From Flavobacterium sp. (GTDB taxonomy: Bacteria; Bacteroidota; Bacteroidia; Flavobacteriales; Flavobacteriaceae), in assembly GCA_038104255.1 (NCBI GenBank), contig JAYOAM010000003.1, forward strand, positions 36,024 through 100,023: a DNA stretch of 64,000 bases, read 5' to 3'. Positions 44,112-46,300 of this stretch are shown here, in pieces; the stretch's first letter is position 1, and each line of letters opens with the position of its first letter. A model generated the notes under the pieces. It saw nothing but the letters and a program-made list of their open reading frames with translations, made no database searches and was not told the DNA's origin. The position numbers and the translations under genes are program-made.

Positions 44112-44834
44112 TTACAACTTAAGATAAAAGTCCTTGGTTAAATCTTTATATTCATTTGTATACACATGTCGACTTTTTTCTAGAATTAATGTTGTCTCTA
44201 TTGTATCTTTTTTGTGAAAAGAGAATTCCAATATACTTCTCTTTATTTCTGAATTATTAGTTCCTTTAACTCTACAAATTCTTCCTAAAAACAAATTATT
44301 CTGCTTTGCTAATTTGACGAAAGATTGTTCCTCCTTATAGGGTATAATAGTGGTGAAAACACCTAAATCTGAAAGTAATTTACTAACCCCTACCAACAAA
44401 TCATTGAAGGATAGCGAAGAAGTAAATCTTGCTCTATTTCTTGATTGATCTTCAGTCTCATATGCATTGCTATAAAATGGGGGATTTGAAATAATAAGAT
44501 CATATTCTTGAGCTTCATTTTTCATTTCCTCTGAAAAATCTTGAAAAGAACTGTGGTAGCAAAATAACCGATCAGACCAAATAGAATTTTCAAAGTTAGC
44601 AACACTCTGCTCATATGCATGAGAATCAATTTCTACTGCATCGATAGTTTCAGCATCACTGCGTTGAGCCATCATTAAAGATACTAATCCTGTTCCTGAA
44701 CCCACATCTAAAATAGCATCTGGAAGTGCTTCTAATGAACACCAAGCTCCTAGGAGAACACCATCTGTACCTACTTTCATGGCCGTTTTATCTTGATGAA
44801 TAGTAAACTCTTTAAAATGAAACGGTTTATTCAT
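44112..44834 (-). CDS. tRNA1(Val) (adenine(37)-N6)-methyltransferase (YfiC-like)
   Basis: FHFKEF...MKVGTDGVLLGAW, LDVGSGTG and ISNPPFY. Confidence 0.9.
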   Translation of the reverse strand: MNKPFHFKEFTIHQDKTAMKVGTDGVLLGAWCSLEALPDAILDVGSGTGLVSLMMAQRSDAETIDAVEIDSHAYEQSVANFENSIWSDRLFCYHSSFQDFSEEMKNEAQEYDLIISNPPFYSNAYETEDQSRNRARFTSSLSFNDLLVGVSKLLSDLGVFTTIIPYKEEQSFVKLAKQNNLFLGRICRVKGTNNSEIKRSILEFSFHKKDTIETTLILEKSRHVYTNEYKDLTKDFYLKL

Positions 44835-44878
44835 TATTAATTATTTTTTTAACCTAAACTTTTGAAATATTAAAAATG

Positions 44879-44911
44879 AAAAACCCGTAACTATCGTTAC
44901 GAGCTTTTTTT
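44879..44911 (-). terminator. Intrinsic terminator after tRNA-Ser
   Basis: Minus strand GCTCGTAAC-gata-GTTACGGGT followed by a T tract. Confidence 0.75.
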
Positions 44912-44912
44912 G

Positions 44913-45000
44913 CAGAGAGGAAGGGATTCGAACCCTCGATACCCTTTTGGAGTATACACACTTTCCAGGCGTGCGCCTTCGACCACTCGGCCACCTCTCT
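44913..45000 (-). tRNA. tRNA-Ser (anticodon GGA), CCA not encoded
   Basis: AGAGAGG/CCTCTCT acceptor stem, discriminator G, TGGCCGAGTGGTCGAAGGC D-arm, CACGC-CTGGAAA-GTGTG anticodon arm, long variable arm, GGTTCGAATCC T-loop. Confidence 0.97.
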
Positions 45001-45526
45001 AATTCAAATACAAATCAATCAAACCCTCGGGTGTTTCAACGTGTATTTGTTTGTTTTCTCTGTCTATTTTTTTAATAAAATCATCAATCATTGGAATAAA
45101 GATTTCAACATCGCCATTTTCAATTTCAAACATGGGCTGTGCAGCTTTATCGTTAACATGAACTATTTCCCCAATGTTCCCATGAGTTTGATCAATTACA
45201 TTAAACCCAATAATTTCATGAAAATAAAATTTGTTACCCTCCAGCTTTGGAAGTAAATCTAACGGAAGATAAATACCTGATTTGATTATAAAATCTGCTT
45301 CTTCTTCACTATTCACGTCTTCAAAATGAACACGTAATAATGTTCCTTTACTCAGAGAACTTTTTTTAATAAAAAATGGAACCAAATTGCCTCCTAGGTC
45401 GACAAATACTGATTCCATATTCTTATACAATTCAGGTTCGTCAGTATCTAACTTGATAACTACCTCTCCCTTAAAACTGTGTTTTTTTACGATAGTGCCT
45501 AAATAAAAACAATCTTCTTTACGCAT
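44999..45526 (-). CDS. rimM: Ribosome maturation factor RimM
   Basis: LGTIVKKHSFKGEV, FYFHEIIGF, IFIPMID and ETPEGLIDLYL; downstream of rpsP; stop TAG at 45001-44999. Confidence 0.96.
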   Translation of the reverse strand: MRKEDCFYLGTIVKKHSFKGEVVIKLDTDEPELYKNMESVFVDLGGNLVPFFIKKSSLSKGTLLRVHFEDVNSEEEADFIIKSGIYLPLDLLPKLEGNKFYFHEIIGFNVIDQTHGNIGEIVHVNDKAAQPMFEIENGDVEIFIPMIDDFIKKIDRENKQIHVETPEGLIDLYLN

Positions 45527-45543: not shown

Positions 45544-46167
45544 TTATTCTTCTTTTTTCTCCTCAGTAACTTCTGGAGCAACTTCTTCAGCCGAAGCTTC
45601 TGGAGTTTCTTCAACTGCTTCTTCAGTCACTTCTTCAGCCGAAGCTTCTGGAGTTTCTTCAACTGCTTCTTCAGTTGTTTCTTCAGTCACTTCTTCAGCA
45701 GCTTCTTCTACAGCAGCTTCTTCTACAGCAGCAGCAACTCTGGCTTCATTCACAGCTTTCTCTGCTTCTAAGGCTTTTGCTTTTGCATCTGATTTAGCTT
45801 TAGCTACTTTTTCTTCTTTAGAAGCAACTTTTCCAGCTTTTTCTTCTAACCAAGCTTGGAATTTTTCCTCAGCCTGTTCTTCAGTTAAAGCACCTTTTCT
45901 CACACCACCAACTAAATGGTTTTTTAGCATAGCTCCTTTGTAAGACAAAATAGTTTTAGCAGTATCTGTTGGTTGTGCACCATTTTGCAACCATTTTACA
46001 GCACCATCAACATCTAAATTAATAGTTGCTGGATTGGTATTAGGGTTGTAAGTTCCTAATTTCTCTAAAAAGCGTCCATCTCTTTTTGCTCTTGCATCTG
46101 CTGCAACAATCCAATAAAATGGTTTTCCTTTTTTTCCGTGTCTTTGTAATCTAATTTTTACTGACAT
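45544..46167 (-). CDS. rpsP: 30S ribosomal protein S16 with long acidic C-terminal extension
   Basis: [11 protein letters not shown]...[14 protein letters not shown]...[11 protein letters not shown]. Confidence 0.98.
45581..45675 (-). repeat. Perfect 47-nt tandem duplication with 48-nt period ([15 protein letters not shown]) in the S16 tail
   Basis: 45581-45627 is identical to 45629-45675. Confidence 0.95.
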
Positions 46168-46230: not shown

Positions 46231-46300
46231 GGCGCAAATGTACGAAGTTTTTTGAAATTGATAAACTAATTTTACAATATCATAAAAAGTTACTAATTAC

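What the first reader, a model, noticed from the sequence alone, without database searches (positions are those of the whole stretch)
44913..45010. rimM stop codon lies inside the tRNA-Ser: RNase P would create a non-stop mRNA (mitochondrion-like tRNA punctuation)
Seen in sequence: on the minus strand rimM ends ...TAT TTG AAT T|AG AGAGG..., and the 7-bp acceptor stem of tRNA-Ser(GGA) (AGAGAGG/CCTCTCT) starts at the A of the TAG stop (45000). I found no consensus -7 element at the end of rimM, while there is a consensus promoter before rpsP and a terminator after the tRNA. This suggests one rpsP-rimM-tRNA transcript. Established: RNase P cuts at tRNA +1 and favours U at -1, as here; non-stop mRNAs are rescued by tmRNA/Arf factors; in animal mitochondria, tRNA excision leaves U or UA that polyadenylation completes to UAA. 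Inference: every tRNA maturation event destroys the rimM stop codon. The processed mRNA then either yields tmRNA-tagged, degraded RimM (lowering RimM relative to S16 and coupling ribosome assembly to tRNA processing) or is repaired by oligoadenylation to UAA. A ribosome terminating at the stop would also occlude the tRNA 5' strand.
Basis: partly seen in the sequence, partly recalled or inferred. Interest (0 to 1): 0.72.

Follow-up and report, generated by a model that had tools for sequence, protein, structure and literature searches.

The report
rimM stop codon shared with tRNA-Ser
In this marine flavobacterium the last two bases of the rimM stop codon are also the first two bases of a serine tRNA gene. 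This looks like the tightest possible packing of genes transcribed together, it recurs in related species, and nothing shows it acts as a regulatory switch.

Summary
rimM (minus strand, 45526-44999) ends in TAG at 45001-44999. tRNA-Ser(GGA) starts at 45000, so A1 and G2 of the tRNA are the AG of the stop codon.

- **One transcription unit (inferred).** The only promoter-like site between 46330 and the tRNA is TACATTTG in front of rpsP. The only terminator follows the tRNA. Elsewhere in this genome, tRNAs that start a unit carry a perfect TAnnTTTG box. The few without one abut an upstream gene.
- **Relatives.** 52 of 80 related loci have this tRNA behind rimM; with the window that makes 53 loci. 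Of these, 22 have the same 2-nt overlap and 31 have spacers of 2-108 nt. A single origin of the overlap is rejected. In four species the tRNA is wedged tightly between rimM and trmN6.
- **No sign of a purpose.** Close relatives switch between overlap and spacer, sometimes by a 4-nt indel. Most Tenacibaculum relatives searched have no match to this tRNA anywhere. Only one PolyA_pol-family enzyme is present.

I read it as near-neutral spacer loss in an mRNA-tRNA co-transcript like E. coli secG-leuU.

The parts
46235..46242 (-). Sigma-A type -7 box TACATTTG, the inferred promoter of the unit
   Evidence: It is the only exact TAnnTTTG in the ~1.4 kb upstream of the tRNA. It is also the only positive hit (score 22.7; next best -4.2) of a matrix built from 19 tRNA promoters of this genome. 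The box occupies -12 to -5 in Flavobacterium (PMC9723704).
46171..46206 (-). S16-Flavobacteria ribosomal protein leader (RF03138)
   Evidence: Rfam match of 54.8 bits against a gathering score of 35.7, covering the full model.
45544..46167 (-). rpsP (ribosomal protein S16, 207 aa, with a long acidic repeat-bearing C-terminal tail)
   Evidence: ORF; Pfam Ribosomal_S16, E 4e-25.
44999..45526 (-). rimM (175 aa), with stop codon TAG at 45001-44999
   Evidence: ORF; Pfam RimM and PRC_RimM; C-terminus ...DLYLN aligns with relatives.
44999..45000 (-). The two shared bases: AG of the rimM stop codon and A1 G2 of the tRNA
44913..45000 (-). tRNA-Ser(GGA), class II, A1-U72, discriminator G, no encoded CCA
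   Evidence: ARAGORN; Rfam tRNA at 56 bits; acceptor-stem covariation in relatives; the only Ser(GGA) gene among the 27 tRNAs found in the assembly.
44879..44908 (-). Terminator-like hairpin plus T run directly after the tRNA
   Evidence: Equivalent hairpins follow the tRNA in L001-L005, L022, L004, L006 and others.
44112..44834 (-). Downstream methyltransferase gene (MTS domain; trmN6/yfiC-like, name inferred)
   Evidence: Pfam MTS. In outgroups without the tRNA it abuts or overlaps rimM by -5 to 21 nt. In L049, L073, L053 and L040 it starts 12-23 nt after the tRNA.

Best explanation
rpsP, rimM and tRNA-Ser(GGA) form one transcription unit. It starts at the TACATTTG promoter before rpsP and ends at the terminator behind the tRNA. 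The tRNA lies inside what was an rpsP-rimM-trmN6 operon and has no promoter of its own.

In this lineage the spacer between rimM and the tRNA is short-lived. Small indels and hairpin-bearing inserts lengthen and shorten it. The 2-nt overlap is the tightest arrangement that keeps both genes intact, for two reasons:
- The tRNA begins with AG, so a T at -1 makes TAG. T is also the base RNase P prefers at -1.
- The other two reading frames run 30 or more codons into the tRNA.

Full-length RimM can only be made from transcripts that RNase P has not yet cut, mostly nascent ones. Cleavage at tRNA +1 leaves a rimM mRNA ending ...AAU-U without a stop codon. Ribosomes still on it are rescued by tmRNA (tag GENNYALAA), and the mRNA decays.

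This extra cost is probably small, because RNase P cleavage already condemns the upstream mRNA in such co-transcripts. The overlap is therefore a near-neutral by-product of compaction, not a purpose-built control.

Shown: the overlap, its recurrence, and the absence of recognisable promoters. Inferred: co-transcription, the cleavage consequences and neutrality.
For: **Anatomy.**

**Promoters in this genome.**
- 19 of 27 tRNAs carry an exact TAnnTTTG box 10-41 nt upstream.
- Apart from downstream members of tRNA clusters, the tRNAs without a box abut a same-strand gene: Ser-GGA/rimM (-2 nt), Ala-GGC (6 nt), Arg-TCG (11 nt) and Trp after tuf (77 nt).
- The matrix built from those promoters scores 22.7 at the rpsP promoter and below -4 everywhere else down to the tRNA.
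- No TAnnTTTG occurs in any spacer of the 31 relatives with spacers, even those of 36-108 nt.
- The different upstream motif of stand-alone tRNA-Ser(GGA) genes in outgroups (TTTTTTGTTAnTTG, training scores 22-29) scores about 6 or less inside rimM or the spacers of every locus the scan covered. The scan stopped on an N before the last few no-tRNA loci.

**Operon context.**
- rimM to trmN6 is -5 to 21 nt in five relatives without the tRNA (four outgroups and one Polaribacter).
- The tRNA is wedged between the two genes in L049 (5 and 12 nt), L073 (5 and 18), L053 (8 and 21) and L040 (37 and 23).

**Recurrence and lability.**
- 22 of 53 loci overlap. The best tree needs 10 changes, and at least 3 are forced by strongly supported branches.
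- Monophyly of the overlap loci is rejected, p-AU 6.8e-68.
- Overlap and gap-2 forms differ by a 4-nt indel.
- T is at -1 in 18 of 31 spacer loci too.

**Machinery.** tmRNA and RNase P RNA are present.

**Precedent.** In E. coli secG-leuU, RNase P leaves 14 nt after the stop codon and secG mRNA then has a half-life under 30 s (PMC2241853). U at -1 is preferred and most frequent (PMC10465520).
Against: - Co-transcription and the cleavage product are inferred from sequence only.
- Promoter absence rests on motif models. Stand-alone tRNA-Ser(GGA) genes in outgroups use a non-canonical upstream motif, so unrecognised promoter types are possible.
- The window has a one-mismatch box, TGTATTTG, exactly at -12..-5 relative to tRNA +1.
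- The gap distribution is peculiar. There are 22 loci at -2 and none at -1, 0 or +1, which could hint at selection for this exact arrangement. It is also what a preference for U at -1 would give.
- Neutrality is argued from lability among relatives and was not measured.
Confidence: 0.6

Rival explanations
1. One reading: the overlap is a selected regulatory device. Each tRNA maturation event turns the rimM message into a non-stop mRNA. RimM is then tmRNA-tagged and degraded, or the stop is rebuilt by A-addition. This lowers RimM relative to S16 and ties 30S assembly to RNase P/tRNA processing.
For: - The overlap persists across whole clades: the window plus L001-3, L005 and L008, and four Polaribacter species.
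- It has arisen or been kept many times.
- No locus has a gap of -1, 0 or +1.
- tmRNA is present.
- There is a precedent for regulation through a deliberately made non-stop mRNA: arfA cut by RNase III (PMC3989581).
- RimM is needed in far lower amounts than S16 in E. coli (my own knowledge of the trmD operon).
Against: - 31 of 53 related loci have a normal stop codon and a spacer, often in sister species of overlap loci.
- Transitions need only 4-nt indels.
- 19 of 28 searched genomes without the tRNA behind rimM, mostly Tenacibaculum, have no match to the tRNA anywhere, yet keep rpsP-rimM.
- No second PolyA_pol-family enzyme exists for A-tail repair.
- In secG-leuU the upstream mRNA dies on RNase P cleavage even with its stop intact, so the overlap adds little regulatory power.
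Confidence: 0.12
2. The tRNA has its own promoter inside the 3' part of rimM. In the extreme case the near-consensus TGTATTTG box at -12..-5 starts transcription at tRNA +1. Most rimM mRNA would then end elsewhere or keep its stop codon, and tRNA maturation would not consume rimM messages.
For: - TGTATTTG (45012-45005) lies exactly where a sigma-A box would place the start at tRNA +1 (box position from PMC9723704).
- Stand-alone tRNA-Ser(GGA) genes in outgroups use a non-canonical TA-n-TTG-type upstream motif, so this tRNA may tolerate odd promoters.
- A few relatives have exact TAnnTTTG boxes inside rimM at -134, -185 or -15.
Against: - The box lacks the conserved A at its second position, which all 19 tRNA promoters of this genome have.
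- The same DNA (GATTTGTATTTG, coding DLYL) occurs in Tenacibaculum loci that have no tRNA, so it is explained by coding.
- Its final G is not conserved within the window's own clade (TTG or TTA in L001, L005, L008), and the box is absent from the Polaribacter overlap loci.
- The boxes inside rimM are not conserved and also occur in loci without the tRNA.
- Both promoter matrices score negative in rimM of the window.
- Even with an internal promoter, read-through from rpsP would still make the co-transcript, because no terminator can lie between the two genes.
Confidence: 0.15
3. Annotation artefact: either the real rimM stop lies elsewhere, or the tRNA 5' end or the tRNA itself is not functional.
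For: None found. This was considered only because gene finders sometimes extend ORFs into RNA genes.
Against: - No earlier in-frame stop exists, and the C-terminus ...LYLN matches relatives.
- The tRNA scores 56 bits over its full length.
- A1-U72 is invariant and 4:69 covaries in 53 loci.
- It is the only Ser(GGA) gene in the assembly.
Confidence: 0.02

Closest known systems
E. coli secG-leuU operon, an mRNA-tRNA co-transcript separated by RNase P (PMC2241853)
   Same: A protein gene is followed on the same strand by a tRNA with no promoter between them and a terminator after the tRNA. A single RNase P cut makes the tRNA 5' end and the mRNA 3' end, and the upstream mRNA is then rapidly lost.
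   Different: secG keeps its stop codon plus 14 nt after cleavage. Here the cut falls inside the stop codon, so the processed mRNA is non-stop. Co-transcription is shown experimentally for secG-leuU and only inferred here.
Animal mitochondrial tRNA punctuation with incomplete stop codons
   Same: The protein gene runs directly into a tRNA. Excision of the tRNA leaves an mRNA ending in U of the would-be stop codon.
   Different: In mitochondria this applies genome-wide and the stop is completed by polyadenylation. Here it affects 1 of 27 tRNAs, most tRNAs have their own promoters, the DNA encodes a full TAG before processing, and no dedicated poly(A) polymerase was found.
arfA of E. coli: RNase III cleavage makes a non-stop mRNA so that tmRNA controls ArfA (PMC3989581)
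   Same: An endonuclease cut at the end of an ORF yields a non-stop mRNA whose product is tagged by tmRNA.
   Different: In arfA the device is conserved, the function is demonstrated and it is logically tied to tmRNA capacity. Here the arrangement is labile among relatives and no function is shown.
Other gene/tRNA stop-codon overlaps noted in this scan (tuf/tRNA-Trp in a SAR86 genome; phage tRNA islands, with T4/T5 named there as precedents)
   Same: A stop codon shares bases with the 5' end of the next tRNA in compact genomes. The follow-up agents read these as spacer loss or tight packing.
   Different: Those involve different genes and lineages. They are unchecked AI notes, used only as leads.

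Membership tests
mRNA-tRNA co-transcription unit processed by RNase P (secG-leuU type) | tRNA directly downstream of a protein gene on the same strand | tested here: met
   rimM 45526-44999 and tRNA 45000-44913, both on the minus strand.
mRNA-tRNA co-transcription unit processed by RNase P (secG-leuU type) | No promoter between the protein gene's promoter and the tRNA | tested here: met
   By sequence models only. The genome-specific promoter matrix has one hit, before rpsP. There is no exact TAnnTTTG in rpsP or rimM. The outgroup tRNA-Ser promoter motif is absent.
mRNA-tRNA co-transcription unit processed by RNase P (secG-leuU type) | Terminator after the tRNA and none before it | tested here: met
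   Terminator-like hairpin at 44908-44879. No minus-strand terminator lies between 46300 and 45000.
mRNA-tRNA co-transcription unit processed by RNase P (secG-leuU type) | A transcript spanning the mRNA-tRNA junction is detectable, and RNase P-dependent ends map to tRNA +1 | not testable with these tools
mRNA-tRNA co-transcription unit processed by RNase P (secG-leuU type) | RNase P of the bacterial RNA type is present | tested here: met
   RF00010 match at 202.8 bits at G000:C14:122009-122347.
Mitochondrion-like tRNA punctuation with stop completion by polyadenylation | tRNA excision leaves U or UA as the mRNA 3' end in frame | tested here: met
   From the sequence, a cut at +1 leaves ...AAU-U in frame. 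The cut itself is inferred.
Mitochondrion-like tRNA punctuation with stop completion by polyadenylation | Punctuation is the general way transcripts are organised in the genome | tested here: not met
   19 of 27 tRNAs have their own consensus promoter box. Only one tRNA overlaps a stop codon.
Mitochondrion-like tRNA punctuation with stop completion by polyadenylation | A poly(A)-adding activity completes the stop codon | tested here: inconclusive
   Only one PolyA_pol-family gene (474 aa) is present in a 92.5% complete genome. It is needed for CCA addition because tRNA genes lack CCA. Tailing by PNPase cannot be excluded, and no RNA 3' ends were available.
Programmed non-stop mRNA controlled by tmRNA (arfA type) | Endonuclease cut removes the stop codon | tested here: inconclusive
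   It follows from the geometry if RNase P cuts a co-transcript. The cut has not been observed.
Programmed non-stop mRNA controlled by tmRNA (arfA type) | The arrangement is conserved among orthologues | tested here: not met
   22 loci overlap, 31 have a spacer and 28 have no tRNA. There are multiple transitions and a single origin is rejected.
Programmed non-stop mRNA controlled by tmRNA (arfA type) | The tmRNA-tagged product is detected and has a regulatory effect | not testable with these tools
   This needs proteomics or a tag-variant experiment. Only the tmRNA gene itself was found.

The most novel reading that the evidence does not exclude
In a free-living bacterial lineage, RNase P processing of an operon-embedded tRNA necessarily turns the mRNA of a ribosome-assembly factor into a non-stop message. 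Selection keeps this exact -2 register: 22 loci, none at -1, 0 or +1. RimM output would then be set by the race between translation termination and tRNA 5' maturation, with tmRNA removing the excess. That would be a bacterial counterpart of mitochondrial tRNA punctuation with a regulatory role.
Probability: 0.1. Interest if true: 0.7.

Novelty: new member of a known kind. Interest (0 to 1): 0.33.

Why it matters
If the inferred co-transcription holds, this is a natural case in a free-living bacterium where normal tRNA maturation must make a non-stop mRNA of an essential-pathway gene. That gives a simple system for asking how much such 'built-in' non-stop messages load the tmRNA rescue pathway.

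It can be tested in cultured species. Polaribacter irgensii, P. ponticola and P. sargassicola have the overlap. Close relatives with 2-66 nt spacers serve as natural controls.

It also matters for annotation, because pipelines that forbid gene/tRNA overlaps could misplace the end of rimM. As a biological mechanism it is most likely ordinary genome compaction.

Tried and rejected
- **Sigma-70 style promoter scan.** Uninformative for Bacteroidota. I replaced it with TAnnTTTG searches and a genome-specific matrix.
- **Promoter in the last rimM codons.** The TGTATTTG idea was rejected as a conserved element (see rival 2).
- **Promoter of the outgroup tRNA-Ser type inside rimM or the spacers.** None found.
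- **TAG stops in spacer loci as relics of a former overlap.** 5 of 31 (16%) use TAG, the same as the genome-wide 17%, so there is no signal.
- **A1 of the tRNA as an adaptation to the overlap.** Rejected. Stand-alone tRNA-Ser(GGA) genes in Maribacter (L081) and L082 also begin with A1, while four other outgroups have G1.
- **Literature searches for published bacterial stop-codon/tRNA overlaps.** No paper describing this was found in the held library.
- **Earlier notes of this scan on this locus or its look-alikes.** Nothing on the rimM/tRNA junction.

Full report
**1.

On the minus strand, rimM runs from 45526 to 44999 (175 aa). It matches the Pfam RimM N-terminal domain and PRC_RimM, and the barrel match ends at residue 169. 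It ends ...TAT TTG AAT TAG, with the stop codon at 45001-44999.

ARAGORN calls tRNA-Ser(GGA) at 45000-44912. The Rfam tRNA model matches 45000-44913 over its full length at 56 bits. A1 and G2 of the tRNA are therefore the AG of the stop codon.

The 5' register is well supported. In 53 loci (the window plus 52 relatives) position 1 is always A and pairs with T72. Pair 4:69 switches in a compensated way: AGAGAGG/CCTCTCT in 34 loci and AGAAAGG/CCTTTCT in 14. It is the only Ser(GGA) gene among the 27 tRNAs found in this assembly. The assembly is 92.5% complete and 2.19 Mb.

**2. The surroundings**

Reading downstream along the minus strand:
- a terminator of the preceding gene (46325-46306)
- a consensus Bacteroidota -7 box, TACATTTG (46242-46235)
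- the S16-Flavobacteria leader RF03138 (46206-46171, 54.8 bits)
- rpsP (46167-45544)
- a 17-nt gap
- rimM, then the tRNA
- a terminator-like hairpin with a T run (44908-44879)
- a methyltransferase gene with an MTS domain, which I take to be trmN6-like (44834-44112)

The window belongs to an uncultured marine Flavobacteriaceae genome close to the Polaribacter/Tenacibaculum group.

**3. Does the tRNA have its own promoter?**

In Flavobacterium the sigma-A box TAnnTTTG occupies -12 to -5 (PMC9723704).

In this genome, 19 of 27 tRNAs carry an exact TAnnTTTG, mostly TATATTTGCA, 10-41 nt upstream. Every tRNA more than 39 nt from an upstream same-strand gene has one, apart from downstream members of tRNA clusters and tRNA-Trp. 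The tRNAs without a box abut a same-strand gene:
- Ser-GGA behind rimM (-2 nt)
- Ala-GGC behind a Usp-like gene (6 nt)
- Arg-TCG behind a YqeY-like gene (11 nt)
- Trp behind tuf (77 nt)

A matrix built from the 19 promoters scores 22.7 at the rpsP promoter and below -4 at every other position down to the tRNA.

In the relatives, every locus with enough upstream sequence has a TAnnTTTG before rpsP. None of the 31 spacers has one, not even those of 36-108 nt.

One caveat appeared. Stand-alone tRNA-Ser(GGA) genes in six outgroup genomes share a different upstream motif, TTTTTTGTTAnTTG, 17-31 nt before the tRNA. A matrix of that motif (training scores 22-29) finds nothing above about 6 inside rimM or any spacer in the loci it reached. 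The scan stopped on an N before the last few no-tRNA loci.

The window does have TGTATTTG exactly at -12..-5 relative to tRNA +1. I do not take it as a promoter, for these reasons:
- It lacks the conserved A at the second position.
- It is the coding sequence for LYL.
- The same DNA is found in Tenacibaculum loci that have no tRNA.
- Its final G varies (TTG or TTA) within the window's own clade.
- It is absent from the Polaribacter overlap loci.

**4. Operon context**

In five relatives without the tRNA (four outgroups and one Polaribacter), trmN6 starts -5 to 21 nt from the rimM stop, so rimM and trmN6 form an operon. In four species the tRNA is wedged between the two genes, with no room for a terminator plus a promoter:

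| Locus | rimM to tRNA (nt) | tRNA to trmN6 (nt) |
|---|---|---|
| L049 Tenacibaculum aquimarinum | 5 | 12 |
| L073 Lutibacter oceani | 5 | 18 |
| L053 | 8 | 21 |
| L040 | 37 | 23 |

This is the strongest comparative argument that transcription runs from rimM into the tRNA in this lineage. Co-transcription in the window itself is still an inference. I put it near 0.8.

**5. How common is the overlap?**

Of 80 related loci (one genome per species), 52 have tRNA-Ser(GGA) behind rimM. Counting the window as well, 22 of 53 loci have exactly the same T|AG overlap and 31 have spacers of 2-108 nt. No locus has a gap of -1, 0 or +1.

The overlap occurs with RimM of different lengths: mainly 174 aa ending ...LYL or ...LYI and 175 aa ending ...LYLN or ...LYIN, with one locus (L021) at 173 aa. 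On a tree of S16 plus RimM, with the last 8 residues left out, the overlap state needs 10 changes, and at least 3 are forced by strongly supported branches. Holding the 22 overlap loci together costs 284 log-likelihood units (p-AU 6.8e-68; the group was named after seeing the tree).

The window's own clade (window, L001-3, L005) all has the overlap, as does the nearby L008. Transitions are mechanically easy. TTA T|AGAGAGG (overlap) and TTA TAA AA|AGAGAGG (gap 2) differ by a 4-nt indel.

T is at -1 in 18 of 31 spacer loci as well. U at -1 is the preferred and most frequent base for bacterial RNase P (PMC10465520). Gaps of 0 or -1 would force A or G at -1, which may explain why the tightest state seen is -2.

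The other two frames into the tRNA stay open for 30 or more codons (read), so only the TAG register is viable.

**6. What follows mechanistically (inferred)**

Type A RNase P RNA is present, and so is tmRNA with tag GENNYALAA. A cut at tRNA +1 leaves a rimM mRNA ending ...AAU-U, with no stop codon.

Full-length RimM must therefore come from transcripts not yet cut. Ribosomes caught on cut messages need rescue.

In E. coli secG-leuU, RNase P leaves 14 nt after an intact stop codon, yet secG mRNA is degraded with a half-life under 30 s after the cut (PMC2241853). If the same applies here, losing the stop adds little to a message that is already condemned. This fits the free interchange of overlap and spacer forms.

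Most spacers of 18 nt or more carry a hairpin ending 2-10 nt before the tRNA, often of the form CUGAA...UUCAG. It would sit at the 3' end of the processed rimM mRNA and might protect it. Overlap loci have no room for one.

**7.

Regulation of RimM against S16, or coupling of ribosome assembly to tRNA processing, is not excluded. Several results argue against it:
- The arrangement is labile among close relatives.
- 19 of 28 genomes lacking the tRNA behind rimM, mostly Tenacibaculum, have no match to tRNA-Ser(GGA) anywhere.
- Only one PolyA_pol-family gene exists. It is needed for CCA addition because the tRNA genes lack an encoded CCA.

The arfA precedent (PMC3989581) shows that a programmed non-stop mRNA can be regulatory. 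There, however, the device is conserved.

**8. Comparison and novelty**

The closest known system is the secG-leuU type of mRNA-tRNA co-transcript. The resemblance to mitochondrial tRNA punctuation is real at the junction but not genome-wide.

I found no paper in the held library describing a stop-codon/tRNA overlap in a free-living bacterium. Earlier unchecked notes of this scan report the same geometry for tuf/tRNA-Trp in a SAR86 genome and in phage tRNA islands.

I class this as a new member of a known kind. It is real, recurrent and experimentally tractable, but most likely a by-product of compaction.

**9. Limits**

- Promoter absence is model-based.
- The tree is short (282 columns) and many inner branches are weak.
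- Neutrality is argued from phylogenetic lability and was not measured.

Noticed in passing
Genomes of L007-L060 (mostly Tenacibaculum); search: 19 of 28 relatives that lack the tRNA behind rimM have no match to tRNA-Ser(GGA) anywhere in their genomes, including complete ones. This tRNA seems to have been lost outright in Tenacibaculum, so UCC/UCU must be read by another serine tRNA.
   Followed up: partly
L081-L086, about 17-31 nt upstream of stand-alone tRNA-Ser(GGA): Six outgroup genera share a conserved upstream motif, TTTTTTGTTAnTTG(c)CAcTC, instead of the canonical TAnnTTTG box seen before other tRNAs. It may be a distinct promoter type specific to this tRNA.
   Followed up: partly
Own genome outside the window: G000:C16:64709-64783 (tRNA-Ala GGC) and G000:C7:155449-155523 (tRNA-Arg TCG): Two more tRNAs lack a promoter box and sit 6 nt and 11 nt behind same-strand genes (a double Usp-like protein and a YqeY/GatB-like protein). 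mRNA-tRNA co-transcripts look habitual in this genome.
   Followed up: partly
Spacers of L004, L035, L038, L040, L052, L059, L062, L068 and others (between the rimM stop and the tRNA): Hairpins recur, often CUGAA-loop-UUCAG. They end 2-10 nt before the tRNA 5' end and sometimes include the TGA stop codon. They could be 3'-end protectors of the processed rimM mRNA, terminator remnants or small repeat elements.
   Followed up: partly
L049, L073, L053, L040: tRNA-Ser(GGA) is wedged between rimM and trmN6, with 5-37 nt on one side and 12-23 nt on the other and no terminator. The tRNA would have to be excised from the middle of a polycistronic mRNA.
   Followed up: partly
window 45544-45830 (-): S16 is 207 aa. 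Behind the ~80-aa conserved core it has a long Ala/Glu-rich acidic tail that contains a tandem repeat ([16 protein letters not shown] twice).
   Followed up: no
window 45005-45054 (-): The last 50 nt of rimM can form an 8-bp long-range stem (CAAAUACA/UGUAUUUG) that ends 4 nt before the predicted RNase P cut (fold of 71 nt, -11.4 kcal/mol). I did not check it for conservation or significance.
   Followed up: no
window 44835-44912 (-): Between the terminator and the trmN6-like start, the window has no exact TAnnTTTG box. Its closest relatives L001-L003 and L005 have one 23 nt before the start codon. How the methyltransferase gene is transcribed here is unclear.
   Followed up: no
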